Made by a program: the position numbers and the translations under genes
Source of the DNA: Bacillota bacterium
Lineage (GTDB): Bacteria; Bacillota; Clostridia; Tissierellales; MES13
Length of the DNA: 64,000 bases
Direction: 5' to 3'
Assembly: GCA_009711765.1 (NCBI GenBank)
Contig: VEND01000090.1
Location: forward strand, 1,065-65,064
Shown: in pieces, positions 4,861 to 19,448 of the stretch
Layout of the letters: each line of letters starts with the position of its first letter
Position numbering within the stretch: position 1 is the stretch's first letter
Notes under the pieces: generated by a model
Databases searched by the model: none
Told to the model about the DNA's origin: nothing
The model's input: only the letters and a program-made list of their open reading frames with translations

Positions 4861-4895
4861 AATGAACTGCCCTAATAGGGCAGTTCATTTTTTTG
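4861..4895 (+). terminator. Rho-independent terminator of veg
   Basis: AATGAACTGCCCT-aat-AGGGCAGTTCATT perfect 13-bp stem followed by a T-run. Confidence 0.9.
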
Positions 4896-4987
4896 ATATA
4901 CTACTAATTATTACAAATAAACTAATCTTAAAGAATAGGTTAAAGTCTGATATAATTAGATTATACTTAATACGAGGGGGACTTTCT

Positions 4988-5815
4988 TTGAAAAAACTAA
5001 TGATATTACTTTTTATATTAACATTTCTTTTCTCTGGATGCGCTAAAAGTAAACCAAACAAGCCAGAGGATGTAAAAGCAGATGAAAATATAGATGAAAA
5101 TAATGAAGTTAAAGACGATAAAGATAAAAAGGAAAAAAAGGAAGAAAAGATATATGAAGGTGAAGCCCTAGATACATTAGATAAGGATGGAATAATAGAA
5201 GTCTATAGTGAAAGGGTAGAAAATGTAAGGGATAATGAAACTAAGGAAAAAGCAATATATAAGTTAAAAGATTTTGAAAAAGTAAAACTACTAGAAACAC
5301 TACCCTATGGATGGTTTTTAGTTGAACTTAAGGATGGAACTAAAGGATATGTGGATTCAAGATATATAAGAACAAAGGAAATTCCGCCCCATGATTTTAA
5401 TGTAAAGGATAAAGGATATACCCTAATATTTACCCATGAAGATCAAACCCTTAAGATATATAAAGATGGAAAACTTATAAAAGAAACCATAGGTTCAAGT
5501 GGTCTTTGGGATCATTTCACTCCTAGGGGAATATTTAGAGTTCAGGATAAAATTAAGCTTTATGGTAAACTTAGACCAAGTAGAGGAAAGTGGTTTTATA
5601 CGCCTAGGATAAAACAAGGCGGTAAATACTGGGTAAGATTCAGTGGAGTTTATTTATTTCATTCAGTACCCTTTACTGAGGAGGGTAAGTTAATTAAAAA
5701 AGAAGCTCAAAAACTTGGACAACCTGCAAGTCATGGTTGTATTAGACTTCCTGTTGAGGATGCTAAATATATATATGAAAATATAAAACCAGGAGCATTG
5801 GTTTTAATATATTAA
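4988..5815 (+). CDS. L,D-transpeptidase (YkuD domain) lipoprotein with SH3-like domain
   Basis: Listed ORF 4862 begins inside the veg terminator. The likely start is TTG 4988 (or ATG 5000) after GAGGGGGA. Lipobox LFSGC. YkuD catalytic block is GQPASHGCIRLP. Confidence 0.85.
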   Translation: MKKLMILLFILTFLFSGCAKSKPNKPEDVKADENIDENNEVKDDKDKKEKKEEKIYEGEALDTLDKDGIIEVYSERVENVRDNETKEKAIYKLKDFEKVKLLETLPYGWFLVELKDGTKGYVDSRYIRTKEIPPHDFNVKDKGYTLIFTHEDQTLKIYKDGKLIKETIGSSGLWDHFTPRGIFRVQDKIKLYGKLRPSRGKWFYTPRIKQGGKYWVRFSGVYLFHSVPFTEEGKLIKKEAQKLGQPASHGCIRLPVEDAKYIYENIKPGALVLIY

Positions 5816-6147
5816 CAAATTAGGTAATAGACAGTTAATAACTGTTTAAATAGATAATTAAATAATAAAAAATAAAAACAGTCTTAGTTCTATAAAATTT
5901 AGAACTAAGGCTGCTTTTATTTTTTTGTAGTTGCTTGTTTATTAAAGTAAAATTTTTTAAAAAATAAATAGACAAGCAAACATGTTTTGTAATTAGCGAA
6001 TATATATTTAAAAAGAAATAGAAATTAATGTATAGAACAAGAAATCAGTGGAAATAATTAACTATGAATATAAATTAAAGGGAGACAAGGAAATACATTC
6101 CATACATGGGCACCTGGAATGTAGGGAGTCAATGGTGCAACCGACCC
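5747..6147 (+). repeat. Copy A of duplicated segment (ldt 3' end + intergenic + structured leader)
   Basis: Aligns by eye with 10539..10856. Copy A carries about 90 extra nt around the ldt terminator. Confidence 0.85.
5876..5927 (+). terminator. Rho-independent terminator of the L,D-transpeptidase gene
   Basis: CAGTCTTAGTTCTA...TAGAACTAAGGCTG 14-bp stem (one G-U) followed by TTTTATTTTTTT. Confidence 0.8.
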
Positions 6148-6178
6148 GAGGCCTAGAAAGATTTAGGTTGTATTTTTA
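6078..6178 (+). promoter_or_regulatory. c-di-GMP-II (GEMM-II)-like riboswitch, copy A, leader of sipW
   Basis: Ordered blocks GGAAAUAC, AUGGGCACC and GGUGCAACCGACC, as I recall them from the C. acetobutylicum c-di-GMP-II aptamer (..UGGGCAC..GUGCAACCGACC..). Stem ACAUUCCA/UGGAAUGU. Weak hairpin 6150..6169 plus U-run lies before the sipW RBS. Confidence 0.68.
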
Positions 6179-6198
6179 TGTTAAAAAAGGGGGAGCAC

Positions 6199-6747
6199 AT
6201 GAAAAAAGTGTTTAAATGGCTAAGTAATATCATACTTGGAATTTTAATTATTTTAGTTTTATTTTCTGTATTTTCTATGTTTCAAAGTAGAAAAAATCCA
6301 GATAAAGTACAATCAATATTTGGGTATAAACCAATGTCAGTTTTAACTGGAAGTATGAGACCAAAGCTTCAACCTGGGGATATGATAGTAGCTAAGGATA
6401 TACTTCCAAAAGAAGTTAAATTAAAAGATATCATAACTTTTAAAATAGGTAGTAATACTTTAGTTACCCATAGAGTTGTAGATATTGTTACTAAAGATAA
6501 TAAACTATATTTTAAAACTAAAGGTGATGCAAATAATGTGAAAGACCAAGATTTAGTATCATCAGACCAACTTATAGGAGTTTTAGCTTTTAATATACCT
6601 AAAGGCGGATATATAGCTAATTTTATAAGAAGTCCTAAAGGTTTTTTATTATTAATTATAGTGCCAATAATTCTCCTTTTAGGAGGGGAATTAAAAAGCA
6701 TATTATCAGATGTGGATGAATGCGATAACAAAGTCAAAAAATTCTAA
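6199..6747 (+). CDS. sipW: Signal peptidase I, SipW (archaeal/ER) type
   Basis: ATG 6199 after AAGGGGGAG. N-terminal TM, then LTGSMRPKLQPGDMIV (Ser box), VTHRVVD (His box) and TKGDANNVKD, plus a C-terminal TM as in B. subtilis SipW. Confidence 0.88.
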   Translation: MKKVFKWLSNIILGILIILVLFSVFSMFQSRKNPDKVQSIFGYKPMSVLTGSMRPKLQPGDMIVAKDILPKEVKLKDIITFKIGSNTLVTHRVVDIVTKDNKLYFKTKGDANNVKDQDLVSSDQLIGVLAFNIPKGGYIANFIRSPKGFLLLIIVPIILLLGGELKSILSDVDECDNKVKKF

Positions 6748-6844
6748 TGATAATATGTAATATAAAAACAAAATAATTAACATAGTTTAAGGTTTACTAG
6801 GGGATAAAAGATTACTTTAGGAGGTGACTTGTAACTAAAGAGAA

Positions 6845-6885
6845 AAAAATGGGCATCTGTGAGAGAGATAACCCATTTTTAAAAA
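6845..6885 (+). terminator. Hairpin plus T-run between sipW and first TasA-like gene (possible attenuator or terminator)
   Basis: AAAAATGGG (6845..6853) pairs with CCCATTTTT (6872..6880), with an inner ATCT/AGAT extension. Confidence 0.45.
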
Positions 6886-6964: not shown

Positions 6965-7924
6965 ATGAAAAAGAAAGTATTATTAAGTGTTTTATTGGTA
7001 GGTTTATTAGCCTTTGGTGCAGGAATGGGAACTTTAGCTTATTTTCAAAGTCAATTTAAAAGTGTAGGTTCAGTTATTCAAGCTGCTGAATGGGATATTG
7101 AGATGGATGATTTAATTGAAAATACGAATGGCACAGTTACAAGTGAATTTGACGTACCTTATTTTGCACCAGGTATGAGTAATGAAATGTCGTTATTTAT
7201 TAGAAGTGGGGCTACAAATGTAGATAGAAAGATTACAGTGAAAGTTGAACCTAAGGGTGATTTATTTACAAATATTAACTATCCATTTATTTTTAATGTA
7301 AATCATAGTAATGGACCAGGCGCTCCAACTTTAGTAGAAGATAATAAAGTTTATACCTATGAGTTCTATAGAACAAAAGAAGAAATTATAGGTACCGAAT
7401 ATATTTCTGTAGAGTATGAATGGCCATTTGATAGTTCTCCAGCAGTTGACAAAAGTTTAGAAGGGTTAGCAGGTACAATGGATGTCACAGTAACAGTTAC
7501 TCAAGTTAAGCCAGAAGATATGCCAGCTAGTTATACACAACTTTCAGGAGATGCAAGAGTTAATGCACCAGTTGATGGAGTAAAAAGAAATTGGTCACCT
7601 TTCCAAGGTAAAATAGATGAAAATAATGTACCTATTGAAATGAAAATTGAGGATCCAAATCTTGGTACTATAGAATTTGAATTAGAATATAATAAAGCTG
7701 TTAATGAATATAATTTAGCTAAATTTGAAGCTAATACTCCTGTAGGTCAAAATTATTTAGACAAAATTGTTCATCTTAGATTTATGCCTGATAACGAAAC
7801 ACCTGGACCACAAGTAAACCTTAGAAATGGATTTTCTTTAGAAGGTATTGATATAACTTCAGCAACACATTTTTACTTTTGTGATGTAAGCGGAAATAAT
7901 CAAAAGATTGAGATAGACAAATAA
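6965..7924 (+). CDS. TasA/camelysin-superfamily secreted protein with extra C-terminal domain
   Basis: SipW-cognate-style signal (LLAFGAGMGTLAYFQSQ). PG strand FAPGMSNEMSLFIRSG. C-terminal strand of the fold is LAGTMDVTVTVTQ at about aa 170-185. About 130 aa of unassigned domain follow. Confidence 0.75.
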   Translation: MKKKVLLSVLLVGLLAFGAGMGTLAYFQSQFKSVGSVIQAAEWDIEMDDLIENTNGTVTSEFDVPYFAPGMSNEMSLFIRSGATNVDRKITVKVEPKGDLFTNINYPFIFNVNHSNGPGAPTLVEDNKVYTYEFYRTKEEIIGTEYISVEYEWPFDSSPAVDKSLEGLAGTMDVTVTVTQVKPEDMPASYTQLSGDARVNAPVDGVKRNWSPFQGKIDENNVPIEMKIEDPNLGTIEFELEYNKAVNEYNLAKFEANTPVGQNYLDKIVHLRFMPDNETPGPQVNLRNGFSLEGIDITSATHFYFCDVSGNNQKIEIDK

Positions 7925-9249: not shown

Positions 9250-10476
9250 GTGAAAATGAATAAGAAAAAGATTGTAATAAAATCAGTTACTTTTTTAGTA
9301 TCTGGATTTATAATTAGTACAGCCTTTTTAATGAATTATGACACTTTTTCCTTCTACACTGAAAAGCTAACAGGGGAGGTAGGTGTTTCAGCTGCTAATG
9401 AAAAAGATATTATTAAAGATATAAATTTAGAAACTGATAGGTTTGGTAATACAGAGACCTTAGTATTACAAAAAGGAGAAGGATATGAAGGGGTACCAGT
9501 TATATATTTTTCAATTGATGGAGAGATAGAGGATTATATATTAAATATAAATCCTTTAGTTTTAAATTCATCTCAATCTAAAATATATATTAAAGCGAAA
9601 TCTAATATAACTTTAGAACAGTTTATTAAATTATTGGCAAGCGATAAAGATAAAATAACAGGGACAATAAATATAAGGTCTTTAAATGATTTTGTATATA
9701 ATAAAGACTATACATTAGAATTCAGTAAAAACTATCTTATTGATAAATTTAAATCTCAAATTCCGACAGAAGATAGAAAAGTTATAGAAATTGCAGAAAA
9801 AATATTACAAAGTAATCAGATAAGTTTAAGTGAAGAAAGATTAGTGGATTTTGCTATTTATTCTTTTAAAGAAAATGAAATGAATTCTATCAAGATAGTT
9901 AAAAAACTACTACAACATATTTTTTCTAAAAATAGTACTGAGGTTGATTCGTTAAAGGTTAGTAAAGAACATAGTTTATCCTTACAAAAAGAGCAGATAG
10001 AGTTGATAGATATAATACAGCCTAAATTTGTAGATTATATGAAGGATTTAGAAGGGACAGTTAAAAATTTAAATAAAGTAATAGATGATAATATATTAAA
10101 AATCGAAAAACTTAATGGTGAGAAAGGGATATTAGAAAGAAAAGCAAAAGAATTAGAAGAAACAAAAGAAGTTAAAAATCAAGAAATTGAAAAGCTAAAT
10201 AAAAAAATAGAAGAGATTAATAATGATATTGAAGTACTAAAGGATAATAATAATAAATTAGACAAAAGAATATCATATCTTAAAGAAGATAAAAATGATT
10301 TAGAAAAATCTATTAGAAAATTAAGAAAAGAAAAAGAATCATTGTTAAAGAAAAATGAAAGATTAATAAAGGAAAATAAAGAGCTTAAAAAAGAGATAGA
10401 AGAACTTAAAGATAAGCTTTCAACAGATAACGATGACAACACTACAGTCTCAGGGGATGTTTATGGAAGTAATTAG
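9250..10476 (+). CDS. Membrane-anchored or secreted protein with long C-terminal coiled coil
   Basis: GTG 9250 or ATG 9256 after AGGAGGTG. N-terminal hydrophobic segment is followed by TFSFYTEK. The last ~150 aa are a heptad-like K/E/L/N-rich coiled coil. Confidence 0.6.
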   Translation: MKMNKKKIVIKSVTFLVSGFIISTAFLMNYDTFSFYTEKLTGEVGVSAANEKDIIKDINLETDRFGNTETLVLQKGEGYEGVPVIYFSIDGEIEDYILNINPLVLNSSQSKIYIKAKSNITLEQFIKLLASDKDKITGTINIRSLNDFVYNKDYTLEFSKNYLIDKFKSQIPTEDRKVIEIAEKILQSNQISLSEERLVDFAIYSFKENEMNSIKIVKKLLQHIFSKNSTEVDSLKVSKEHSLSLQKEQIELIDIIQPKFVDYMKDLEGTVKNLNKVIDDNILKIEKLNGEKGILERKAKELEETKEVKNQEIEKLNKKIEEINNDIEVLKDNNNKLDKRISYLKEDKNDLEKSIRKLRKEKESLLKKNERLIKENKELKKEIEELKDKLSTDNDDNTTVSGDVYGSN

Positions 10477-10538
10477 TGAAAATATTAAAAACAAAAGGGA
10501 GTTTTGCATGAATACAATATCAAAGGAAATTTTACAAA

Positions 10539-10608
10539 CTGCAAAGTGTTGAGGATGTTAAACATATATGAAAATATAAAACTTGGATCATTTGTTTTAA
10601 TATATTAA
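10539..10608 (+). pseudogene. Dead 3' fragment of an L,D-transpeptidase gene (duplicate of 5747..5815)
   Basis: Translates LQSVEDVKHI, compared with LPVEDAKYIY in the intact gene. A 2-nt deletion shifts the frame. The equivalent stop context TATATTAA is retained. Confidence 0.75.
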
Positions 10609-10856
10609 TAAATTAGGTAATAGACAGTTAAAACTGTTTGTTACCTTTTTATTTTTTTGTATAAATTAAAAGACAAGCATACATATTTTTTTTATTAGTG
10701 AATATATATTTATAAGGATATAAAAGGAGTAAATTTATATATATAAAACGAAATGTTTTGGAAATAGTTAGAGACAAATGATTATAAAAGGGAGACTAGG
10801 AAATACATTCCATATATGGGCACCTGGAATGTATGGAGTCAATGGTACAACCGATC
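10539..10856 (+). repeat. Copy B of duplicated segment (ldt remnant + intergenic + structured leader)
   Basis: Collinear with 5747..6147. The leader core 10791..10856 matches 6081..6146 at 61 of 66 positions (manual alignment). Confidence 0.85.
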
Positions 10857-10886
10857 TTTATTTTAGTAAAAGGTCTTTTTATTTAT
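10788..10886 (+). promoter_or_regulatory. c-di-GMP-II-like riboswitch, copy B, with intrinsic terminator; leader of two-component system
   Basis: Same blocks as copy A, except GGUACAACCGAUC replaces GGUGCAACCGACC. Terminator stem GATCTTT (10853..10859) / AAAGGTC (10869..10875) plus TTTTTATTTATT. The 5' half of that stem overlaps the aptamer 3' end. Confidence 0.65.
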
Positions 10887-10906
10887 TATACGGGGGGGAG
10901 TAATTT

Positions 10907-12574
10907 TTGAACAGTATTTATAGGATAAAATCTTTTTTAAAAAAACAGTCAGAAGAAGTAAAAATAATGTTTTTTTATAGATACATATCTTTAATAGTTA
11001 CTTCATTTTTTTATTTTGTTGGAGATTCCCATCATAATATTCAAAGAAGACTATTTATAATAATATGTCTTAGTATATCGTCTATTATACTTAGTTACTT
11101 ATATATAATAAATGAAAAAAACCCTTCGAAAATAAAATTACTAGTGTTAATAGAAACTTTAGGTAATTGCTCAATTTTAATACCTTCTGGTGGGCTTAAT
11201 AGTCCCTATGTTTGGTATTCAATAAATACTATATTAATGACTTCAATGGCTTTAAAAGGAAAATATTCTTGGATTAATACATTTATATATTTAAGTGCTT
11301 CTACTTGGATATCCTATCTAGTTACTGATTTTAATAATTATAGCTTTATAGATTTAATAGAGGAAGAATCAAATATAATACTTAGTTTAATTTTGATTAC
11401 TTCAATAATAAGATTACTGTCAAAATACATAAAAAAGATGGAAATAAAAGGTAAGAAGGTTAAAGAAGCCAACAGAAAATTAAAAGAATCAATGACTCAT
11501 ATAATGGAACTTTATCAGGCAGTACATTTATTTACAACACAAAATAGTAAAGATAGTCTGATAGAAATTATAATTAATCATACTAAAAAAATAACAAAGG
11601 CAAATACAGTTATATTTTATAATATATCAAATGAAGAAGATAAATTAATCTGTAAAGGTAGTAAGTTATCTAATGATATAAAGGAAAAATTAAAAATAAA
11701 AATATCAGATTTAAGGAATAATATTCTAGATTCACAAATAACAATAGAATTAGGAATAGAAGGAGAAAATTTCGTTTTAATTGCTTTAAAGTCAAATTAT
11801 AAGACATATGGGATATTAGGGATTAAGTTAAATTATAAAGAAAATATAGAACAATTACAGTTTTTATCTGAGTTAAGCTCTATTGTATTAGAGAAATTCG
11901 AGCTTGAACAGGTTAATGAAAAACTATTGATTACTGAAGAACAAAATAGAATAGCAAATGAAATTCACGATAGTGTCCTGCAGAGACTATTTAGCATATC
12001 ATGTGGAATATTTGCTTTAATTAAAAAAGAAAAAATGACATCTGATGAGATGAATAATGAATTAAATATGATAAGAAGTTCCATAAACAGTACTATGAAG
12101 GAATTAAGATCAACAATATATGGACTGAGCTGGAAAAAAGAAGGTTTAGATTATTTTGTAGATAATATTTCAAATTATATTAATGAAGTTAAAAAATTAA
12201 ATAATGTAGATATAAGTTTCAATATAAAAGGAGATCATGAATTATTATCATCACTACAAAAGAAGTCAGTACATAGAATAATTTGTGAAGGTATAGGAAA
12301 TGCAGTTAATCATGGAAAGGCTAATAATATTGAAGTAAAGCTTAATATTAAAAAATATATAACTTTACTTAAAATAGCTGATAATGGTAAAGGATTTGAT
12401 TTAAATAAGGTAAGAAATAAAAAGGATGTAGGATTAGGTATTAAAAATATTCATTATTTAACTCAGTTACTTAATGGTGAAATTAATTTTAATACTAGAA
12501 ATGAAAAAGGAACTAAAATTAAAATCACCATTCCAAATAATATTAATAATTTTAAAAAGGAGGAAGTAATATGA
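10907..12574 (+). CDS. Sensor histidine kinase, HisKA_3 (NarX/LiaS/DegS-like) family, polytopic N-terminus plus GAF-like middle region
   Basis: TTG start after GGGGGGAG. About 5 TM helices. H-box EEQNRIANEIHDSVLQRLF. HATPase_c blocks NAVNHGKA, DNGKGF and GLGIKNI. Confidence 0.85.
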   Translation: MNSIYRIKSFLKKQSEEVKIMFFYRYISLIVTSFFYFVGDSHHNIQRRLFIIICLSISSIILSYLYIINEKNPSKIKLLVLIETLGNCSILIPSGGLNSPYVWYSINTILMTSMALKGKYSWINTFIYLSASTWISYLVTDFNNYSFIDLIEEESNIILSLILITSIIRLLSKYIKKMEIKGKKVKEANRKLKESMTHIMELYQAVHLFTTQNSKDSLIEIIINHTKKITKANTVIFYNISNEEDKLICKGSKLSNDIKEKLKIKISDLRNNILDSQITIELGIEGENFVLIALKSNYKTYGILGIKLNYKENIEQLQFLSELSSIVLEKFELEQVNEKLLITEEQNRIANEIHDSVLQRLFSISCGIFALIKKEKMTSDEMNNELNMIRSSINSTMKELRSTIYGLSWKKEGLDYFVDNISNYINEVKKLNNVDISFNIKGDHELLSSLQKKSVHRIICEGIGNAVNHGKANNIEVKLNIKKYITLLKIADNGKGFDLNKVRNKKDVGLGIKNIHYLTQLLNGEINFNTRNEKGTKIKITIPNNINNFKKEEVI

Positions 12575-13191
12575 AGATACTTGTAGTTGATGACCATCCA
12601 TTAGTAAGAAAGGGGATATCATCAACCCTCTCCTTTGAAGATGATATTGAAAAAGTACATGAAGCATCTAGTGTAGAAGAAGCAATGAAGGGATTACGTA
12701 GATATAATCCTGAAATTGCTATGATCGATTTAAAACTTGGTAAAGAAGATGGTCTAGACATTGTAAAAAAAGCTAAGAAAGAGAGATTATTTACTAAATA
12801 CATAATATTAACTTCATCTTCTAATAGGGATGACTTTTTAAGGGCACAAAGGGTAGGAGTAGATGGATACGTACTAAAGGAAGCTTTTACAGAGGATGTA
12901 ATATATGCATTTCATGTAGTTAGAAGGGGTAAAAAGTTTTTTGATCAAGAAATTTTACAATATCAGATGGATGAATCTAATGATGATAAATATGATGAAT
13001 TAACACCTAGAGAAAGGGATGTCTTAGTTGAGTTAGGGAAAGGTTTAAGTAACATACAAATAGCAAGAAAATTATATATATCAGAAAATACAGTTAAAAA
13101 ACATGTTAGTAATATATTTTCAAAATTATGTTTAAGTCATAGAACAGAGGCAGCACTTTATATTAATAATTCAGTTAAATTTGGAACTTAA
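12571..13191 (+). CDS. Response regulator, NarL/LuxR family
   Basis: 4-nt overlap with the kinase gene. REC domain (KILVVDDHPLVRKG, MIDLKLG). C-terminal LuxR HTH (LTPRERDVL..L.KGLSNIQIARKLYISENTVKKHVSNIF). Confidence 0.92.
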   Translation: MKILVVDDHPLVRKGISSTLSFEDDIEKVHEASSVEEAMKGLRRYNPEIAMIDLKLGKEDGLDIVKKAKKERLFTKYIILTSSSNRDDFLRAQRVGVDGYVLKEAFTEDVIYAFHVVRRGKKFFDQEILQYQMDESNDDKYDELTPRERDVLVELGKGLSNIQIARKLYISENTVKKHVSNIFSKLCLSHRTEAALYINNSVKFGT

Positions 13192-13223
13192 ATAAATACT
13201 CTTAAAGTAAAAGAGGTGTTTAA

Positions 13224-13721
13224 ATGGTAAGAAAAAGAAAGAAAAAAATATTTAAAGGTAAGAAATTAATGTTAATTAGCTCTATTGCAATGTTAAATTT
13301 TGTAGGAGTAAGTTATGCATCTTGGAATGATAACATAGAAATATTTACTTCTCTTTCCACTGGGGAAATGAATATATCCTTTATAGATAGTCATAATATT
13401 CAAAAGGTAAGGGGAAAAGGAACTTTAGAAGTAAAACATATCGGTGAAAATACAATAGAAATTAGTGGAGAGGTAGATAAAGATTATAAAGCATTTTTAC
13501 ATTACGGTGTAGTAAATAAAGGTAGTATCCCTGTTAAATTTAGAGGACATCCATCCCATGATAAAGCTGGATTGAAACTACGATTAAATAATCAATCTAA
13601 AATGATAGGACCTAAGGAAGTCATTTATAAAAATGGGAATCCTAAATTACATATTGAAGCAAGGGAAGTAGGTACTTGTAATTTTACAATAAAATTACCC
13701 TTTAAACAATGGAATCGTTAG
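13224..13721 (+). CDS. Minimal TasA-superfamily secreted protein (165 aa)
   Basis: Signal plus N-terminal strand FVGVSYASWNDNIEIFTSLSTGEMNISF, compared with TasA WAAFNDIKSKDATFASGTLDLS. Also VVNKGSIPVKF. C-terminal NFTIKLPFKQWN, compared with TasA FSFEATQWN. Confidence 0.7.
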   Translation: MVRKRKKKIFKGKKLMLISSIAMLNFVGVSYASWNDNIEIFTSLSTGEMNISFIDSHNIQKVRGKGTLEVKHIGENTIEISGEVDKDYKAFLHYGVVNKGSIPVKFRGHPSHDKAGLKLRLNNQSKMIGPKEVIYKNGNPKLHIEAREVGTCNFTIKLPFKQWNR

Positions 13722-13768
13722 CTAGATAGAGTCTACTTTTTAATATAGGTTTTAATGGAGGTATAAAT

Positions 13769-14005
13769 GTGAAAAAAGGATCGGTTATTTTATTAAGTAC
13801 AATAGGTGGATTTATCTTAATGTCAGGGGGATATGGCCTTTGGAGAGATAGTTTAACTATTAAAGGTAATATAACAGTTATTGAAGAGGTATATCCTGAA
13901 GAGACAATGGATGCTTTATCCTTTGAACAACCTAATTTAGACTTAGAAAATGTTACAGATATAGAGGATGAAAAAACGGTTACTGAAGATGTGTACAGTG
14001 AATAA
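13769..14005 (+). CDS. 78-aa secreted mini-protein: signal peptide, TasA-type N-terminal strand and acidic tail only
   Basis: GTG start after GGAGG. LSTIGGFILMSGGYGLWRDSLTIKGNITV resembles GAGYAYWSETLTINNTVKTG of the downstream subunits. The rest is D/E-rich, and there is no globular domain. Confidence 0.55.
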   Translation: MKKGSVILLSTIGGFILMSGGYGLWRDSLTIKGNITVIEEVYPEETMDALSFEQPNLDLENVTDIEDEKTVTEDVYSE

Positions 14006-14036
14006 ATAATAAAGAAAAGTAAATGGGGGACAAAGG

Positions 14037-15248
14037 ATGATAAATAATTATTTACCAACAAAAGCATCTAAAAAAAGATGCTTTTTACTTATCGGCTTAT
14101 TACTTAGTTTATATTTGGTTGAAAACTCACCCATAACTAAATATCTTGATAATCAAATTTTAAATTACATTTTAAAACCTATGTTATGGGGAAGTATGGC
14201 TTTAATAGTATGGATATTTCCTAAAATCAGATCTAAGGGTTTATTAAAATTAAAGGGACTTATAAATATATGGGCTTTTAATTTTTCTATAATTTTTATT
14301 GTTATATCAGTAATAGCAGGAGTTATTGATGGCTTAGGGAAAAGTCCTTACGATCACTCTTTAAGGGGTATGTTACTTAATATTTTACTAGTTGGTTCTA
14401 TGTTAATTGGTAGGGAGTTTGTAAGAAGTTATATAGTAAATAGTTTAACTAAGGAAGAAAATTATGTTGTATTTGTATTAGTTGCTTTATTTATGACTTT
14501 TATTAGTATATCTTTAAATAGGTATTTTAAAATAGATGGATATGTAAGTGGAGTTAAATTTACAGCCCAATACTTTGCTCCTGAATTTTCAAAAAATCTT
14601 TTTGCATCCTATTTAGTATTTTTAGGAGGGCCAATAGCTTCAATAATTTATTTAGGAGTATTAGAAGCATTTCATTGGCTTTCACCTATACTTCCGGATT
14701 TAAAATGGATTATAACTGCACTAATAGGTGTTTTATGTCCTATTTTTTCACTCCTTGCAATGCAAAGTATATATCTAAATCAATCTAAGGAAATAAAAGT
14801 GAGTGATAAAGAGGAAGATAGTCCTATAAGTTGGATGATAACTAGTATAGTATCCATAGGAATCATATGGTTTGCAGTGGGTGTATTTCCAGTTTATCCT
14901 TCTGTTATAGCAACAGGTAGTATGGAGCCTATGATAAAACCTGGGGATGTAATATTAGTTAAAAAAATAGTAGATATAGAAGGTGTTAAAAAGTTAGATA
15001 TAGACGATGTGATTCAGTTTAAACGAGGTAATATACTAATATCCCATCGAATAAAAGAAATAGTAGAGAAAGAAAAAGAGGGAATTCAATATAAAACAAA
15101 GGGAGATAATAACTCAGTTTCAGACAGTAAGTTAGTAAAGCCAGAACAGATAAAGGGAAAGATTGTAAAGGTTGTACCAAAAATAGGATGGCCTACATTA
15201 CTTATTAAAAGTAAAGACGATATTCCATTAGATCAAATAGAATTTTAA
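14037..15248 (+). CDS. Polytopic membrane domain (~280 aa) fused to SipW-type signal peptidase I
   Basis: The N-terminus has about 7-8 predicted TM helices of unassigned family. C-terminal peptidase blocks: ATGSMEPMIKPGDVILV, ISHRIKEIV, YKTKGDNNSVSD. Confidence 0.8.
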   Translation: MINNYLPTKASKKRCFLLIGLLLSLYLVENSPITKYLDNQILNYILKPMLWGSMALIVWIFPKIRSKGLLKLKGLINIWAFNFSIIFIVISVIAGVIDGLGKSPYDHSLRGMLLNILLVGSMLIGREFVRSYIVNSLTKEENYVVFVLVALFMTFISISLNRYFKIDGYVSGVKFTAQYFAPEFSKNLFASYLVFLGGPIASIIYLGVLEAFHWLSPILPDLKWIITALIGVLCPIFSLLAMQSIYLNQSKEIKVSDKEEDSPISWMITSIVSIGIIWFAVGVFPVYPSVIATGSMEPMIKPGDVILVKKIVDIEGVKKLDIDDVIQFKRGNILISHRIKEIVEKEKEGIQYKTKGDNNSVSDSKLVKPEQIKGKIVKVVPKIGWPTLLIKSKDDIPLDQIEF

Positions 15249-15280
15249 AAAAATCACAGGATACAGTCCTGTGATTTTTC
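15248..15280 (+). terminator. Rho-independent terminator after the SipW fusion gene
   Basis: AAATCACAGGA-tacag-TCCTGTGATTT stem followed by a T-run. Confidence 0.85.
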
Positions 15281-15453
15281 TATGTAGATAAATATTAGTT
15301 CAGCGACGTAATACTAAAGTAGTATATCTATAACTAATAAGTATTAGTAAATATACATCTAAAATAGGATAAATAACTATCCTTACGTACGATGTTAAAT
15401 ATATGAATAAATACTATAATTAGTATTGTAAGAAATATGAAAGCTAGCTAATA

Positions 15454-15475
15454 TTACTTAATGGCCATTAAGTAA
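15454..15475. promoter_or_regulatory. Perfect 22-bp palindrome upstream of first BsaA/TasA-like subunit gene (candidate operator)
   Basis: TTACTTAATGG|CCATTAAGTAA, ending 46 nt before ATG 15522. Confidence 0.4.
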
Positions 15476-15521
15476 AACCTATCAAATTTATTAAATTAAA
15501 AAAATAAGGGAGAGATTTTTA

Positions 15522-16124
15522 ATGAAGAGAACTAAATTTTTAGCATTAGCATTAGTAGCAGCAATTATGGTAATGGGTGCTGGATATGCATATTGGTCAG
15601 AAACTATAACAATTAGCAATACAGTTAAAACTGGGGAATTAGATTTTACATTTAATGACGCAGCAATAGTAAGTGTTGATGAGTATATGGATTATGATGC
15701 TACTTCTACTTGTGGTGTAAATAGTGATGATAATAATCAAGTTGATATTGTATTAGAAGATATGTACCCAGGAGCAGAAGCCACAGTAAAATTTGATTTA
15801 GAAAACACAGGTACTATGAAAGCTAAACTAAAGAATTTTGCTATACCAACAGCACAAGAGAATGAATATGTTCATGTAACTTCAGTTAAATTAGGTGATG
15901 CCGAATTACTTACTGAAACTATAAATATTGCTGATTTAGACTCAACGTTAGAAGCTCAGAATATTACTATTGAACCAGATGCTGAGCAATATTTTGAGAT
16001 TACTTTCGAAATAGATCCAAATGCTGATGAAGATCAAGTAGCTGAAAATCTTGGAGATAATGATGATGCTATTGAGTTTACTTTAACTGCAGATGGACTT
16101 CAATATAACGATGATGAAAACTAA
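15522..16124 (+). CDS. BsaA/TasA-family SipW-dependent matrix or fibre subunit (acidic, 200 aa)
   Basis: Signal plus strand VMGAGYAYWSETITISNTVKTGELDF. MYPGAEATVKFDLENTGT. C-terminal AIEFTLTADGLQ. Strong RBS GGGAGAG. Confidence 0.8.
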   Translation: MKRTKFLALALVAAIMVMGAGYAYWSETITISNTVKTGELDFTFNDAAIVSVDEYMDYDATSTCGVNSDDNNQVDIVLEDMYPGAEATVKFDLENTGTMKAKLKNFAIPTAQENEYVHVTSVKLGDAELLTETINIADLDSTLEAQNITIEPDAEQYFEITFEIDPNADEDQVAENLGDNDDAIEFTLTADGLQYNDDEN

Positions 16125-16135
16125 GATTATTAAAA

Positions 16136-16163
16136 TTTATGCAGGGTAAGAACCCTGCATAAA
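16136..16163 (+). terminator. Hairpin after subunit gene 1
   Basis: ATGCAGGG-taagaa-CCCTGCAT. The trailing T-run is weak. Confidence 0.5.
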
Positions 16164-16259
16164 TTATCTTTAAAAATTCATTTAAAATAAAGTAATTATT
16201 GTTATGATAGTTTGAGAAAAATTATATTAGAAACACATTAAAAAATGAGGGGTGTTTTC

Positions 16260-16922
16260 ATGAAAAAATCAAGAGTGCTGGCCCTAACTTTAGTAGTTGC
16301 GGTTGTGTTAATGGGAGCTGGATATGCATATTGGAGTGAAACTTTAACAATTAATAATACAGTAAAAACAGGTGAATTGGATTTACAATTTGACTATCCT
16401 ACTTATGATGGTGACTATGATGATAAATATCCATATTCAGATGATTATATGAAAGTTGATTCTTATTTTGAAGATGAGAAACATAAATTAGTTTTTGAGT
16501 TAGAAGATGTTTATCCAGGTGGCGGCGGTTGGTTAAATTTTAAAATTAAAAATACGGGAACTGTACCAGCTAAGCTTACAAGTATAACTCCTTCAATCCT
16601 TTCAGATGAAGCTAATATGAAAGATGAATTTAATTATGCACTTCATTCAATAAAATTATATTATCCTATAAAGATTGGACAATGGGAATGGACATATGTA
16701 ATACCTGTAGATTTTCCTATGTATGCTACTACATTTAATGATTTTGTAGGAAAATTACAATCAAAACTTAGTCAATATACTTTAGAACCAGGTGCATACT
16801 TTGTAATAAATGCTGAAAGTGGAGGTTATGATATACAATTACCAAGTACAGTAACAAGTGATGACTTTGAAGATGAAACGTTCAAATTTGATTTATTATT
16901 AAACTTTGATCAAGCGCATTAA
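16260..16922 (+). CDS. BsaA/TasA-family SipW-dependent matrix or fibre subunit (paralog, ~220 aa)
   Basis: ATG 16260 after GAGGGGTG. LMGAGYAYWSETLTINNTVKTGELDLQF. VYPGGGGWLNFKIKNTGT. C-terminal TFKFDLLLNFDQA. Confidence 0.8.
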   Translation: MKKSRVLALTLVVAVVLMGAGYAYWSETLTINNTVKTGELDLQFDYPTYDGDYDDKYPYSDDYMKVDSYFEDEKHKLVFELEDVYPGGGGWLNFKIKNTGTVPAKLTSITPSILSDEANMKDEFNYALHSIKLYYPIKIGQWEWTYVIPVDFPMYATTFNDFVGKLQSKLSQYTLEPGAYFVINAESGGYDIQLPSTVTSDDFEDETFKFDLLLNFDQAH

Positions 16923-16962
16923 TACTAAAAAAGCTAGGAATATAGTCCTAGCTTTTTTAGTA
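16923..16962 (+). terminator. Rho-independent terminator after subunit gene 2
   Basis: TACTAAAAAAGCTAGGA / TCCTAGCTTTTTTAGTA 17-bp stem including a T-run. Confidence 0.85.
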
Positions 16963-17039
16963 TTAATGTACTATTCTAAAAAGGTAATTCATAAATTATG
17001 TAGAATATGTAATTAATACAAATTGGTGGGAGTGATGTC

Positions 17040-18146
17040 ATGAAGTTTAATATAAATAAGAACATCAGAAAAATTATAATGATAGCTAGTATAATTCTGA
17101 TTATGATTACCTCTTTTTTCTTATATCGTGAGTATAAAATTAAAGAATATGAAGAAAAGAAAATAAGTTTATATAGTTATAATAATAAATCTATTATTAA
17201 TTACGAAGTTTTTCTTAAACCTAATGTTTTGTATGAGACCGAAAGTATAGGAGAAAGGCACATATATATTACAGAGTTTGTTGATTATCTTAATACGATA
17301 TTTACTTATGATTTTAAAGGGGAAAAAGAAGCAGAAATTAAAGGAAATTATGAAATTGTAGCTGTAGTTGAAGGATATACAGGCGAAGGTGAAACATATA
17401 AAAGTATATGGAAGAAGGCTTTTACTTTAGTATCTAAAAAGAAATTCAATGTTAAAGATAAAAAGGTTTCTATAAATCAAGAAGTTCCAATAAAATTTCA
17501 TGAATATAATAATTTCGCTAAAAAGGTTATTGAAGACTCAAAAATTTATTCTAGTGTTAAATTAAATGTGTTTATGGATGTTAATCTAAAAGCTAATACT
17601 GACAAAGGACTGATAGAAGAAAAAATAACACCTGCTATAGAGATACCTCTTAATACAAATTATTTTGAAATTGCTGGAGAGCTATCTCAAGATAAAGAAG
17701 GAAGTATAGAAAAAACAGTTAAGGTTGAATTGCCTGTGGATAGAAAAAAAGTTATTTCATATTGTGTACTTATAGGTATATTTTTAATAGTATTATTATT
17801 TGTATTGATATTTACTAAAGGGATTTTAGATATAAATCCTTTAGAAAAGAAATTGAAAAAAATATTTAAAAGCCATGGAGATAGATTAGTAGCATTAAAG
17901 GATGAAGTTATATATGATTATGAAAAAATAAATACTGTAAATTCTATAGATGATTTAGTAAGAATTTCTGATGAGATAGGGAAACCTATAATGTATAAGT
18001 ATAGTGAAAATCTTTTAGATATAACTAAATTTTATGTTTATGATGAGACTACTATATATGTTTTAAATTTAGATAAACTTATAGGAAAAAATGAAGTAGA
18101 GGAAACTGTAAAAAATATGATTTCAAATGATAGTGCTGATAGTTAG
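17040..18146 (+). CDS. Bitopic membrane protein of unknown function (possibly DUF5305-like)
   Basis: TM1 at about aa 12-28, a ~210-aa beta-rich outside domain, TM2 at about aa 240-258, and a ~110-aa cytoplasmic tail. The family assignment is from memory only. Confidence 0.6.
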   Translation: MKFNINKNIRKIIMIASIILIMITSFFLYREYKIKEYEEKKISLYSYNNKSIINYEVFLKPNVLYETESIGERHIYITEFVDYLNTIFTYDFKGEKEAEIKGNYEIVAVVEGYTGEGETYKSIWKKAFTLVSKKKFNVKDKKVSINQEVPIKFHEYNNFAKKVIEDSKIYSSVKLNVFMDVNLKANTDKGLIEEKITPAIEIPLNTNYFEIAGELSQDKEGSIEKTVKVELPVDRKKVISYCVLIGIFLIVLLFVLIFTKGILDINPLEKKLKKIFKSHGDRLVALKDEVIYDYEKINTVNSIDDLVRISDEIGKPIMYKYSENLLDITKFYVYDETTIYVLNLDKLIGKNEVEETVKNMISNDSADS

Positions 18147-18308
18147 TTGATAAAAACTACTCAAAAGTAGTATAAGAAATTAATCTAAAGTATTATATAA
18201 AAATATAAAATATTAAATAAGATAATAGTAAGTATTTAAAAAAATATACATATGCAAAGGATAAGTAATTTAAGTTTTAAGAGTATTGAAATCATAGAGG
18301 TGAATTTT

Positions 18309-19448
18309 ATGTGTAAATCGTTTAAGTATTTTAAATACATAACTATATCCCTAGTAATGCTTTGTCTTATTTTTACTAGTTCTTTATCCTATGCATATGA
18401 CACACCAGTTACTGAAGTAACCATAGGTAGTAATAATGAAAACATAGATCCTATTTTTAAAAGTGATGGTTTAAATGGACAAGGAACATGGTATCCTGGA
18501 TATTCATCAAGTGGAATTTTAAGGCTTAAAAATGGACGTAATAAAAGTATTAAGATAAAAAATATAGGTATGGATGCTTCATTAGAGAAAAATGGGACCA
18601 CCCTTGATTTTGAAAATGAATCTGCAATGGCTTATATGAGTAAAATGAAAATAAAAGTTCAGTATAAAAGTCTATTTAGTAAAATAATTAAGGGTACTAT
18701 TTATGATGGTAGTTTTTATGAGTTTATAAATGGTGTAAATACTTCTATAAAAATAGGTAAAGATGATACGGTTGATTTAGTATATACAATTAAAATGGAT
18801 GAAAGTGCAGGAAATAATACTGAAGGTATTAAAGGGAATATAGATTTTACTGTAAGTCTTAAAGAAAATACTTCTAATACTAATACTAATACCGATACAG
18901 GAGGTACTACTAGAAAGAAAAAGCCTGTTAAACATTGGGCCCATGATTGTATAGAAACCCTTTTAGAAAAGGGTATAATTAAAGGGTATCCCGATGGAAC
19001 GATAAGACCAGATAATCATATAACAAGGGCAGAAGCATCAGCTTTAGTATGTAGGGCACTTAAATTAGAAGTAAAAAAACAGTGGCTTCCTAAGTATTTA
19101 GATATTAGTGGGCATTGGGCTCAAGGCTATATAACATCTACAACGAATGAAAAGGTATTTAAAGGATATCCTGGATTTGTATTTAGACCAGAGAGAAATA
19201 TTATAAGAGAAGAGATGTCTGCAGTTTTATTTAGGGCATTTGATAGAGAACTTCAAAAAGATTTAGAGTTAGAGTTTACAGATAATGATAAAATATCTGA
19301 TTGGGCTAAGAGTCATGTAAAGATAGGTGTGGAACATAAAATTATAGTAGGTTATCCAGATAATACATTTAAACCAAGAAATGATATAACAAGAGCAGAA
19401 GCCTTTACTATGATATGTAAGTTATTAGGATATCACAGTGAACATTAA
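18309..19448 (+). CDS. TasA-like N-terminal domain fused to three SLH repeats (paralog of 8102..9229)
   Basis: ATG 18309 after AGAGGTG. Signal peptide ends SLSYA-YD. PIFKSDGLNGQGTWYPGYSSSG...MDESAGNNTEGIKGNIDFTVSLK. SLH repeats: HWAHDCIETLLEKGIIKGYPDGT...ITRAEA. Confidence 0.8.
   Translation: MCKSFKYFKYITISLVMLCLIFTSSLSYAYDTPVTEVTIGSNNENIDPIFKSDGLNGQGTWYPGYSSSGILRLKNGRNKSIKIKNIGMDASLEKNGTTLDFENESAMAYMSKMKIKVQYKSLFSKIIKGTIYDGSFYEFINGVNTSIKIGKDDTVDLVYTIKMDESAGNNTEGIKGNIDFTVSLKENTSNTNTNTDTGGTTRKKKPVKHWAHDCIETLLEKGIIKGYPDGTIRPDNHITRAEASALVCRALKLEVKKQWLPKYLDISGHWAQGYITSTTNEKVFKGYPGFVFRPERNIIREEMSAVLFRAFDRELQKDLELEFTDNDKISDWAKSHVKIGVEHKIIVGYPDNTFKPRNDITRAEAFTMICKLLGYHSEH

What the first reader, a model, noticed from the sequence alone, without database searches (positions are those of the whole stretch)
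6078..6178. c-di-GMP-II-like riboswitch directly upstream of a sipW signal peptidase gene
The leader contains GGAAAUAC, a hairpin ACAUUCCA/UGGAAUGU enclosing AUGGGCACC, and then GGUGCAACCGACC. The blocks UGGGCAC and GUGCAACCGACC, in this order and within about 70 nt, are what I recall from the crystallised C. acetobutylicum c-di-GMP-II aptamer. The helix arrangement between the blocks looks different from that aptamer, so this may be a structural variant. Known class-II switches control type IV pili and adhesins in C. difficile. Control of a dedicated signal peptidase would gate fibre maturation at the processing step. A hairpin plus T-run at 6845..6885 between sipW and the first substrate gene suggests the riboswitch-controlled transcript may largely end after the peptidase. 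The expression platform is unclear: only a weak hairpin (6150..6169) with a U-run precedes the RBS.
Basis: partly seen in the sequence, partly recalled or inferred. Interest (0 to 1): 0.75.

Follow-up and report, generated by a model that had tools for sequence, protein, structure and literature searches.

The report
c-di-GMP-II riboswitch before sipW
The stretch is a genuine, standard-shaped class II cyclic-di-GMP riboswitch in the leader of a SipW-type signal peptidase gene that heads a biofilm-fibre locus; it is a new example of a known RNA class, and I found no published link between that class and this gene.

Summary
Rfam's c-di-GMP-II model (RF01786) matches window 6072-6155 (+) end to end, at 61.9 bits against a gathering score of 53.5 (E 2.3e-11). 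P2, P3 and the loop-to-3'-strand pseudoknot are intact. It is not a structural variant; only P1 is short, with three G-C pairs. The gene 44 nt downstream (6199-6747) is a SipW-type signal peptidase I. A paralogous second copy (10782-10865) precedes a histidine kinase/LuxR-type regulator pair. The same RNA lies within 250 nt upstream of sipW in 13 of the 20 closest species-representative genomes, and in 3 of 7 further close homologues. In those leaders an intrinsic terminator uses the P1 3' strand as its 5' arm, which makes c-di-GMP an ON signal. In this copy the weak hairpin 6150-6169 no longer overlaps P1. Instead the Shine-Dalgarno region (6189-6198) is complementary to the pseudoknot and P1 3' strands. 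I therefore favour a translational ON switch, with moderate confidence. Ligand binding, the transcription start and any stop after sipW are untested. Verdict: a new member of a known kind, of modest interest.

The parts
5879..5913 (+). Intrinsic terminator of the upstream ykuD-type gene (4862-5815). It sets the upstream limit of the sipW transcription unit.
   Evidence: 14-pair stem followed by CTTTTATTTT.
5914..6071 (+). Promoter region of the sipW leader; the start site is not mapped. The best -10 candidate is AATAAT at 6053-6058, with a poor -35. Blocks of sequence are shared with the region upstream of copy 2.
   Evidence: One search found no sigma-70 match of 9/12 or better on the + strand in this interval. 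Searches show the blocks shared with 10700-10781. The -10 assignment is my reading of the sequence, not a tested result.
6072..6155 (+). c-di-GMP-II aptamer (copy 1). P1 is GGG 6080-6082 with CCC 6145-6147. P2 is 6084-6086 with 6128-6130. P3 is 6095-6102 with 6115-6122. The pseudoknot joins 6108-6114 (GGGCACC) to 6134-6138 plus 6141-6142 (GGUGC..CC).
   Evidence: RF01786, 61.9 bits, E 2.3e-11. (pair counts on 17 aptamers). (own model, 82.3 bits).
6150..6179 (+). Weak hairpin (6150-6169; 8 pairs, 3 of them G.U; -6.3 kcal/mol) followed by GUAUUUUUAU. It looks like the remnant of the terminator seen in orthologous leaders. It does not overlap the CCC of P1.
   Evidence: Hairpin pair probability is 0.97 free and 1.0 with the aptamer forced.
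6189..6198 (+). Shine-Dalgarno region GGGGGAGCAC. It is complementary to GUGC (6135-6138), CC (6141-6142) and CCC (6145-6147), the same strands the folded aptamer uses for its pseudoknot and P1.
   Evidence: the MFE structure contains this helix. (duplex -11.0 kcal/mol, second of 47 RBS regions). (SD unpaired 0.41 free, 0.97 with the aptamer formed).
6199..6747 (+). sipW: SipW/archaeal-type signal peptidase I, 182 aa. The ATG at 6178 listed by the ORF tool lies inside the U-run and has no SD.
   Evidence: TIGR02228 113.5 bits, cut-off 51.85; best hit NF046067 SipW at 131.8 bits, below its cut-off of 190. (homologues named signal peptidase I).
6845..6880 (+). Hairpin in the sipW-to-next-gene spacer, with an A-run before it and UUUUU after it. 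It may be a partial terminator or a stabiliser.
   Evidence: -12.0 kcal/mol; present in L081 with one loop change.
6965..7924 (+). Predicted SipW substrate: a 319-aa secreted protein with a SipW-dependent-type signal peptide (LLAFGAGMGTLAYFQS). The mature part has no family match.
   Evidence: 55-56% identity over residues 1-33/36 to the signal peptides of Peptidase_M73 proteins in L081, and nothing beyond. (no Pfam or NCBIfam hit).
10782..10865 (+). c-di-GMP-II aptamer (copy 2), a paralogue of copy 1 created by a segmental duplication. It has one C.A mismatch in the pseudoknot (GUGC changed to GUAC).
   Evidence: 68.8 bits. (alignment). (the only unpaired pseudoknot cell).
10853..10886 (+). 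Terminator-like hairpin of copy 2 (GAUCUUU...AAAGGUC, -4.7 kcal/mol) followed by UUUUUAUUUAU. Its 5' arm is the P1 3' strand.
   Evidence: hairpin pair probability 0.43-0.86 free, 0 when P1 is formed.
10907..13191 (+). Sensor histidine kinase (HisKA_3/HATPase_c, TTG start at 10907, SD at 10892-10900) and a LuxR-type response regulator (12571-13191), both downstream of copy 2.

Best explanation
Window 6072-6155 is a canonical class II c-di-GMP riboswitch aptamer in the 5' leader of sipW. sipW is the first gene of a SipW/TasA(BsaA)-type matrix-fibre locus in an uncultured Clostridia-class bacterium. When c-di-GMP is high the aptamer folds: P1, P2, P3 and a pseudoknot between the P3 loop and the 3' strand. 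sipW expression then goes up, so it is an ON switch. In most relatives the mechanism is antitermination, because the P1 3' strand doubles as the 5' arm of an intrinsic terminator. In this copy that overlap has been lost. The likeliest mechanism here is translational. Without ligand, the pseudoknot strand GUGC..CC and the P1 strand CCC pair with the Shine-Dalgarno region GGGGGAGCAC and hide it. Ligand binding pulls those strands into the aptamer and frees the ribosome-binding site. The weak hairpin 6150-6169 would act at most as a leaky, unregulated terminator. A paralogous copy (10782-10865) gates a histidine kinase/response regulator pair by the classical P1-versus-terminator competition. If that pair activates the sipW promoter, as BsaSR does in C. 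perfringens, the two copies form a feed-forward circuit. Shown here: class membership, structure, gene context, recurrence in relatives, and the terminator overlap in relatives and in copy 2. Inferred: ON polarity for copy 1, SD sequestration, the promoter and the feed-forward loop. Untested: ligand binding.
For: Class membership: RF01786 at 61.9 bits (gathering 53.5), E 2.3e-11, full-length and gap-free. Structure: across 17 sipW-locus aptamers P2 is 100% paired, P3 95% and the pseudoknot 99%, with compensatory changes; the covariation score is 0.371 against 0.08-0.14 for slid partners. Gene: SipW-type peptidase, followed by a protein with a SipW-type signal peptide. Recurrence: a class II aptamer lies within 250 nt upstream of sipW in 13 of the 20 closest genome representatives, and also in L081, L207 and L204/L205. 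ON polarity: in 12 orthologous leaders, plus L207 and L204, a terminator of -12 to -22 kcal/mol includes the P1 3' strand. In copy 2 the hairpin probability falls from 0.43-0.86 to 0 when P1 forms. C. difficile class II switches are ON switches (PMC11477304). Translational model for copy 1: the unconstrained MFE pairs 6135-6147 with 6189-6198 through 9 Watson-Crick pairs. That duplex is -11.0 kcal/mol, second of 47 RBS regions in the window. SD unpaired probability rises from 0.41 to 0.97. Terminator-less copies in L010b and L026a/b show the same behaviour, 0.24-0.32 rising to 0.79-0.95. In L081 an A-to-G change at the position matching 6197 keeps the pair as U.G.
Against: P1 of copy 1 has only 3 standard pairs next to the core; 8 of the 11 model pairs are non-standard. 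One conserved U (model position 18) is G. The SD-sequestration helix is only moderately unusual: 1 of 46 other RBS regions pairs better. It is weaker in the near-identical relative L081, where the SD is already 0.66 unpaired without ligand. It is absent in copy 2. The 'bound' state in my folding forbids the competing pairs by construction, so only the free-state figure carries information. No sigma-70-like promoter of 9/12 or better was found between the ykuD terminator and the aptamer, so transcription of the leader is assumed from gene layout. The relative L081 is too close (96-99% identity in flanking genes) for its conservation to indicate selection.
Confidence: 0.75

Rival explanations
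1. Same riboswitch, but copy 1 still acts on transcription as its orthologues do. The hairpin 6150-6169 plus U-run terminates in the absence of ligand, and the bound aptamer prevents this through tertiary or coaxial effects, or non-canonical P1 extension, that secondary-structure models cannot see.
For: Every orthologous leader that has a platform uses a terminator. The 3' arm AUUUAGGUUG of the hairpin matches the 3' arm in L008 and L018, so it descends from such a terminator. The hairpin stem is kept in L081 while its loop differs at several positions and a G.U pair becomes G-C. A U-run follows it.
Against: The hairpin starts 3 nt after the CCC of P1 and forms with probability 0.97-1.0 whether or not the aptamer is folded. 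At -6.3 kcal/mol with three G.U pairs and an interrupted U-run, it is far weaker than the orthologous terminators at -12 to -22 kcal/mol.
Confidence: 0.25
2. Copy 1 is a decaying relic. The aptamer may still fold, but P1 and the platform have eroded, and sipW is now controlled only at its promoter, for example by the two-component system downstream of copy 2.
For: P1 is reduced to three pairs, and copy 1 has the lowest Rfam score of the two window copies and among the lower ones of the set. The terminator overlap is lost. L026 holds a clearly degenerate copy (34 bits) before its sipW, so decay does occur at this position. Seven of the 20 closest loci, and also L083, L206 and L208, have no aptamer within 250 nt upstream of sipW.
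Against: All P2, P3 and pseudoknot pairs and nearly all conserved core nucleotides are intact. A P1 consisting of little more than the G-C pairs next to the core is common in this subgroup: the outer P1 pairs are only about 40-50% paired across the 17 aptamers. The SD complementarity offers a working alternative platform.
Confidence: 0.12
3. The aptamer belongs to a specificity variant of the class II fold and senses a different ligand, such as another cyclic dinucleotide.
For: Rfam groups variant families with c-di-GMP-II in clan CL00127, and one lower-scoring clan match was suppressed. Model position 18 is G instead of the conserved U in W1, W2 and L081.
Against: Clan competition kept the parent family RF01786 as the best match. 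The GGGCAC loop, GGAG, and GUGCAACCG with its AA bulge match the parent consensus. The gene context, biofilm-fibre genes, is the kind expected for c-di-GMP.
Confidence: 0.04
4. The match is a chance resemblance in AT-rich intergenic DNA.
For: None beyond the low G+C content of the region.
Against: E 2.3e-11 for the whole window against all families. A second copy is present, and homologous aptamers with compensatory changes occur at the same position in many genomes.
Confidence: 0.01

Closest known systems
c-di-GMP-II riboswitches of Clostridioides difficile (Cdi2_3 before CD3246, Cdi2_4 before the pilA1 type IV pilus operon, and the one before cmrRST)
   Same: They share the aptamer class (RF01786) and the ON polarity inferred from P1/terminator competition. 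Their targets are surface or adhesion structures and, for cmrRST, a signal-transduction system, which parallels copy 2 before the kinase/regulator pair (PMC11477304).
   Different: The target here is a SipW-type signal peptidase heading a TasA/BsaA-like fibre locus, which is not among the C. difficile targets listed. Copy 1 lacks the terminator overlap and probably acts on the ribosome-binding site.
Clostridium perfringens sipW-bsaABCRSD operon (BsaA matrix polymer)
   Same: The locus type matches: sipW comes first, followed by secreted fibre proteins and a sensor kinase/response regulator pair. In C. perfringens that pair is required for sipW promoter activity, and a terminator inside the operon gives a short and a long transcript (PMC7395162).
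   Different: That paper mentions a riboswitch only in its reference list and reports no c-di-GMP control of the operon. Its terminator follows bsaA, not sipW. The gene order of the two-component system differs (R-S there, S-R here). Here the two-component genes have their own terminator, promoter region and riboswitch.
Orthologous sipW leaders in Sporosalibacterium faouarense, Clostridium sp. ZS2-4, Clostridium aestuarii and several Clostridiaceae, Tissierellales and Thermoanaerobacterales MAGs (L001, L002, L005, L007-L010, L012, L016-L019, L026, L207, L204)
   Same: The same aptamer sits at the same place, with the same downstream gene and the same kind of cargo: Peptidase_M73/TasA-like and SLH proteins.
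   Different: They carry strong terminators that use the P1 3' strand, whereas the window copy and L081 do not.
Bacillus subtilis tapA-sipW-tasA operon
   Same: Both have a SipW-type peptidase encoded next to its fibre substrates.
   Different: From general knowledge, B. subtilis controls this operon with the protein repressors SinR and AbrB. No class II aptamer was found in any Bacillaceae sipW locus fetched here (L004, L011, L013, L014, L022-L025, L027 and others).

Membership tests
c-di-GMP-II riboswitch (Rfam RF01786) | Covariance-model score at or above the curated gathering score, over the full model | tested here: met
   61.9 bits against 53.5, E 2.3e-11, model positions 1-84 of 84 with no gaps. 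It was the best family within clan CL00127.
c-di-GMP-II riboswitch (Rfam RF01786) | P2 and P3 helices | tested here: met
   P2 is 6084-6086 with 6128-6130 and P3 is 6095-6102 with 6115-6122. Across 17 related aptamers they are 100% and 95% paired, with changes on both sides in 2 of 3 and 7 of 8 pairs.
c-di-GMP-II riboswitch (Rfam RF01786) | Pseudoknot between the P3 loop (GGGCAC) and the 3' strand (GUGC-AA-CC) | tested here: met
   all 7 pairs are standard in copy 1 and 99% of cells are paired in the set. Compensatory C-G to U-A changes occur at two positions (L009/L018/L019 and L010a/L073). Copy 2 has the single C.A mismatch.
c-di-GMP-II riboswitch (Rfam RF01786) | Closing helix P1 | tested here: inconclusive
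   only GGG/CCC plus two isolated pairs are standard, and 8 of the 11 model pairs are not; outer P1 pairs are weak across the whole sipW-associated subgroup (55.8% of cells paired), while the G-C pairs next to the core are largely kept.
c-di-GMP-II riboswitch (Rfam RF01786) | Conserved core nucleotides of the consensus | tested here: met
   alignment: GGAG, UGGGCAC, GGAG and GGUGCAACCG are all present. One deviation, model position 18 U to G, is shared by W1, W2 and L081. I could not retrieve the crystal-structure paper, so I did not map which of these nucleotides contact the ligand.
c-di-GMP-II riboswitch (Rfam RF01786) | Selective binding of c-di-GMP | not testable with these tools
   This needs in-line probing, ITC or a gel-shift assay.
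c-di-GMP-II riboswitch (Rfam RF01786) | Sits in a transcribed 5' leader, on the same strand as the regulated gene, with an expression platform coupled to the aptamer | tested here: inconclusive
   Position and strand are met: a terminator at 5879-5913 lies upstream and the ATG is 44 nt downstream. The promoter and start site are not identified. Platform coupling is clear for copy 2 and the orthologues. For copy 1 it is only modelled, as SD sequestration.
SipW-type (archaeal/ER-type) signal peptidase I | Family HMM above its cut-off | tested here: met
   TIGR02228 scores 113.5 bits against 51.85. The Bacillus SipW equivalog NF046067 is the top hit (131.8 bits) but falls below its cut-off of 190. 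Pfam Peptidase_S26 is just below its cut-off (20.2 against 22.9).
SipW-type (archaeal/ER-type) signal peptidase I | Encoded beside proteins that carry SipW-dependent-type signal peptides | tested here: met
   The 6965-7924 signal peptide is 55-56% identical to those of Peptidase_M73 proteins in L081. The 15522-16124 protein passes TIGR04088 (20.7 against 19) and matches the BsaA family below its cut-off. Peptidase_M73 genes follow sipW in L081, L083, L204 and L207.

The most novel reading that the evidence does not exclude
Two paralogous c-di-GMP-II riboswitches wire a SipW/TasA-like fibre locus into a feed-forward circuit. One gates the signal peptidase and the other gates the BsaSR-like two-component system that presumably activates the same duplicated promoter. 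In addition, the sipW copy has moved from terminator control to a platform in which the ribosome-binding site mimics the aptamer's own pseudoknot and P1 partner strands. This would give a direct RNA-level link between c-di-GMP and TasA/BsaA-type matrix fibres across a clade of Clostridia, a link absent from the searchable literature.
Probability: 0.35. Interest if true: 0.5.

Novelty: new member of a known kind. Interest (0 to 1): 0.33.

Why it matters
How c-di-GMP reaches TasA/BsaA-type matrix fibres in Gram-positive anaerobes is poorly described. In C. perfringens the sipW-bsaA operon is known to depend on a two-component system whose signal is unknown. Here, a class II riboswitch sits directly before sipW in this organism, in 13 of the 20 closest species-representative genomes and in three further close homologues. 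Extra copies lie before substrate genes and before the two-component system. Together these give a simple, testable route from the second messenger to fibre secretion. The finding does not reveal a new RNA class or a new mechanism, so its value is to extend the known regulon of this riboswitch class and to provide a natural pair of paralogous aptamers with different platforms for comparison.

Tried and rejected
(1) Structural variant of the aptamer: rejected, because the fit to RF01786 is gap-free and full-length, with P2, P3 and the pseudoknot intact.

(2) ATG 6178 as the sipW start: rejected. It lies in the U-run with no SD, whereas ATG 6199 has GGGGGAG 4 nt upstream.

(3) P1/terminator competition for copy 1: modelled and not supported, since the hairpin persists in both states. 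It is kept only as a rival.

(4) SD sequestration for copy 2: not supported. The duplex is -5.9 kcal/mol, and 10 of 47 RBS regions (the set includes copy 2's own) pair at least as well. SD accessibility is unchanged.

(5) Small ORF in the sipW-to-6965 spacer (ATG 6849): rejected, because the frame is broken in L081 (sequences).

(6) Metagenome scan with CAACCGAYC-N{25,55}-GGGGGAG to collect W1-like platforms: the pattern was too loose.

(7) Using L081 to infer selection on the leader: rejected. The flanking genes are 96-99% identical, so conservation is uninformative.

(8) Literature: six searches linking c-di-GMP or class II riboswitches with sipW, TasA, BsaA or signal peptidase found no paper that reports the association. 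The original class II paper (Lee et al. 2010) and the crystal-structure paper (Smith et al. 2011) are not held. I therefore could not check their gene lists or ligand contacts, and the association may already be listed there or in Rfam's own annotations.

(9) Further aptamer copies before the second SipW-like gene (14037) or the M73 genes (15522, 16245): none were found with my own model at E up to 1.

Full report
**Observation**

- GGAAATAC lies at 6089-6096.
- The hairpin arms are 6095-6102 and 6115-6122, enclosing the loop TACATGGGCACC.
- GGTGCAACCGACC lies at 6134-6146.
- A weak hairpin at 6150-6169 is followed by GUAUUUUUAU.
- The Shine-Dalgarno sequence GGGGGAG is at 6189-6195 and the ATG at 6199.

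A covariance-model scan of the whole 64-kb window against all 4227 Rfam families gave three hits above the gathering score. Two are c-di-GMP-II (RF01786). One lies at 6072-6155 (+): 61.9 bits, gathering score 53.5, E 2.3e-11, model positions 1-84 of 84, no gaps. The second lies at 10782-10865 (+) with 68.8 bits. The third hit is a lysine riboswitch elsewhere in the window.

**Anatomy of the RNA**

The alignment to the model assigns the helices as follows.
- P2: 6084-6086 with 6128-6130.
- P3: 6095-6102 with 6115-6122.
- Pseudoknot: the P3 loop (GGGCACC, 6108-6114) with the 3' strand (GGUGC at 6134-6138 and CC at 6141-6142, with the AA bulge between them).

I aligned 17 aptamers from this window and from sipW loci of other genomes and counted pairs for this structure. 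P2 is paired in 100% of cells, P3 in 95% and the pseudoknot in 99%, with changes on both sides in most P2 and P3 pairs. The pseudoknot has two compensatory positions (GCAU with AUGC, and CACU with AGUG). The covariation score is 0.371, against 0.08-0.14 when the partners are slid by 1-3 columns.

The one weak element is P1. In copy 1 only GGG (6080-6082) with CCC (6145-6147) is solid, and 8 of the 11 model pairs are non-standard. The outer P1 pairs are weak across the whole sipW-associated subgroup, so this is a subgroup trait rather than a defect peculiar to this copy.

**Gene context**

- *Upstream.* A ykuD-type gene ends at 5815 and has a strong terminator at 5879-5913.
- *sipW.* The gene downstream of the aptamer (6199-6747, 182 aa) passes the archaeal/SipW-type signal peptidase I model TIGR02228 (113.5 bits, cut-off 51.85). 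Its best hit is the Bacillus SipW equivalog, although below that model's cut-off.
- *Next gene.* The protein from 6965-7924 shares only a SipW-dependent-type signal peptide with Peptidase_M73/TasA-like proteins of a close relative.
- *Further genes.* These are followed by an SLH-domain protein and a coiled-coil protein.
- *After copy 2.* There is a HisKA_3 histidine kinase and a LuxR-type response regulator, a membrane-fused second SipW-like protein, two Peptidase_M73 proteins and an SLH paralogue.

The layout resembles the C. perfringens sipW-bsaABCRSD operon. [quoted passage not shown]

The window's SipW is identical to a protein from an uncultured 'Bacillota bacterium' MAG.

**The two copies are paralogues**

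Alignment of 5600-6240 with 10380-10960 shows a segmental duplication of roughly 5752-6200 onto 10542-10905. It includes the last ~60 nt of the ykuD coding sequence as a dead fragment, the promoter region, the aptamer and the GGGGGAG ribosome-binding site.

The near-identical relative L081 (GCA_009711785.1) is 96-99% identical in the flanking genes. It has copy 1 at 68.2 bits. It lacks copy 2 and everything between about 10480 and 19450 of the window.

**Recurrence in other genomes**

I fetched 80 sipW loci from species-representative genomes. I scanned the 20 closest with Rfam and all 80 with a model built from the hits.
- A class II aptamer lies within 250 nt upstream of sipW in 13 of the 20 closest loci: L001, L002, L005, L007-L010, L012, L016-L019 and L026.
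- These come from Sporosalibacterium, two Clostridium species and several Clostridiaceae, Tissierellales and Thermoanaerobacterales MAGs.
- No aptamer was found in the Bacillaceae, Ruminococcus or Lachnospiraceae loci.
- Among seven further close SipW homologues looked up individually, L081, L207 and L204/L205 have the aptamer, while L083, L206 and L208 do not.
- In C. aestuarii (L010) a second copy sits directly before the TasA-like gene. In L026 two copies precede TasA-like genes and a degenerate third (34 bits) precedes sipW.

The riboswitch is therefore attached to the whole fibre programme, not specifically to the processing step.

**Mechanism in relatives and in copy 2**

In 12 orthologous leaders, and in L207 and L204, the aptamer is followed by a strong intrinsic terminator of -12 to -22 kcal/mol. 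Its 5' arm begins in the P1 3' strand, for example ACCCAAUCU...AGAUUGGGUUUUU. Formation of P1 and formation of the terminator exclude each other, so ligand binding should allow read-through. This is the ON logic reported for C. difficile class II switches (PMC11477304).

For copy 2 I checked this by folding. The hairpin 10853-10875 has pair probabilities of 0.43-0.86 in the free ensemble and 0 when the aptamer is imposed.

**Mechanism in copy 1**

Here the picture differs. The hairpin 6150-6169 (-6.3 kcal/mol, three G.U pairs) starts 3 nt after the CCC of P1. It forms with probability 0.97-1.0 in both states. Its 3' arm, AUUUAGGUUG, matches the terminator 3' arm of L008 and L018, so it looks like a weakened descendant of the ancestral terminator.

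What does change between the two states is the ribosome-binding site.
- The unconstrained minimum-energy fold pairs GUGC (6135-6138), CC (6141-6142) and CCC (6145-6147) with GCAC (6195-6198) and GGGGG (6189-6193). That is nine Watson-Crick pairs.
- These are exactly the strands the folded aptamer needs for its pseudoknot and P1.
- The duplex energy of -11.0 kcal/mol ranks second among 47 ribosome-binding regions of the window tested against the same aptamer strand.
- The mean unpaired probability of the SD is 0.41 in the free ensemble and 0.97 with the aptamer formed.
- Terminator-less copies in L010b and L026a/b behave the same way, 0.24-0.32 rising to 0.79-0.95.

I therefore favour a translational ON switch for copy 1. 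The support is moderate only.
- In L081 the free-state SD is already 0.66 unpaired.
- Copy 2 shows no such helix.
- The 'bound' figure is partly built into the constraint.

The transcriptional alternative and a decaying-relic alternative remain open.

**The hairpin after sipW**

The 6845-6880 hairpin (-12.0 kcal/mol) is real and is present in L081 with one loop change. Its U-run is largely paired with the preceding A-run and is followed by A's. Whether it ends the transcript cannot be decided from sequence. In C. perfringens the internal terminator lies after bsaA and is partly read through.

**Comparison and novelty**

The RNA meets the tested defining features of RF01786: score, P2, P3, pseudoknot, core nucleotides, position and strand. 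P1 and the platform coupling are inconclusive for copy 1, and ligand binding cannot be tested here. It works like the C. difficile class II ON switches, including the one before the cmrRST signalling genes, which parallels copy 2.

Six full-text searches found no paper that reports a c-di-GMP riboswitch before sipW, tasA or bsaA. The founding class II paper and the structure paper were not available, so an earlier listing cannot be excluded.

My verdict is a new member of a known kind. The added value lies in three points: the conserved sipW association, the paralogous second copy before a two-component system, and a platform that appears to have shifted from termination to SD sequestration.

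Noticed in passing
window 10782-10865 (+), with 10907-13191: A second c-di-GMP-II aptamer (68.8 bits) lies before a HisKA_3 histidine kinase and a LuxR-type response regulator. Its weak terminator overlaps the P1 3' strand, and it has one C.A mismatch in the pseudoknot.
   Followed up: yes
window 5752-6200 versus 10542-10905: A segmental duplication carries the last ~60 nt of the ykuD coding sequence (as a dead fragment), the promoter region, the aptamer and the RBS. Copy 1 has an extra ~60-nt insert that holds the 5879-5913 terminator.
   Followed up: partly
window 21138-21320 (-): A lysine riboswitch (RF00168, 116 bits) lies upstream of the NhaC/DcuC-type transporter gene at 19484-21037 (-).
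   Followed up: no
window about 10480-19450, compared with L081 15217-15256: About 9 kb is absent from a relative that is 96-99% identical in the flanking genes. The extra DNA holds riboswitch 2, the kinase/regulator pair, two small secreted proteins, a second SipW-like protein, two Peptidase_M73 genes, a 368-aa protein and an SLH paralogue. That relative instead has four M73 genes between sipW and the SLH gene. The sipW coding sequence itself is only 90.9% identical, so the fibre locus appears to be a recombination hot spot.
   Followed up: partly
window 14037-15248 (+): A 403-aa protein combines an N-terminal part of about 260 residues that looks hydrophobic and membrane-embedded (by eye) with a C-terminal SipW-type peptidase domain (TIGR02228 64 bits, residues 286-387).
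   Followed up: no
window 6818-6826: A strong SD-like AGGAGGTGA lies in the spacer between sipW and the next gene and has no usable ORF: it is followed by TTG-TAA. The ORF starting at ATG 6849 is frame-shifted in L081.
   Followed up: partly
L010 2842-2925 and 3771-3854; L026 404-487, 1497-1580 and 2853-2933: In Clostridium aestuarii, class II aptamers precede both sipW and the TasA-like gene. In a Clostridium MAG, two copies precede TasA-like genes with no terminator (their SD pairs with the P1 3' strand), and a degenerate third copy (34 bits) precedes sipW.
   Followed up: partly
L017 1554-1638 and 1697-1784; also L018 984-1229 and L009 1656-1741: Class I c-di-GMP riboswitches lie 1.0-1.5 kb upstream of the sipW genes headed by class II aptamers; they are in tandem in L017 and L018 and single in L009. 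In L017 they precede a gene that looks transglutaminase-like (my reading of the ORF translation; no family search was run). The two riboswitch classes thus sit on adjacent genes.
   Followed up: no
L008 82-261; L081 1449-1610: A raiA RNA (149 bits) and an M-box riboswitch before corA turned up in the flanks of the related loci.
   Followed up: no
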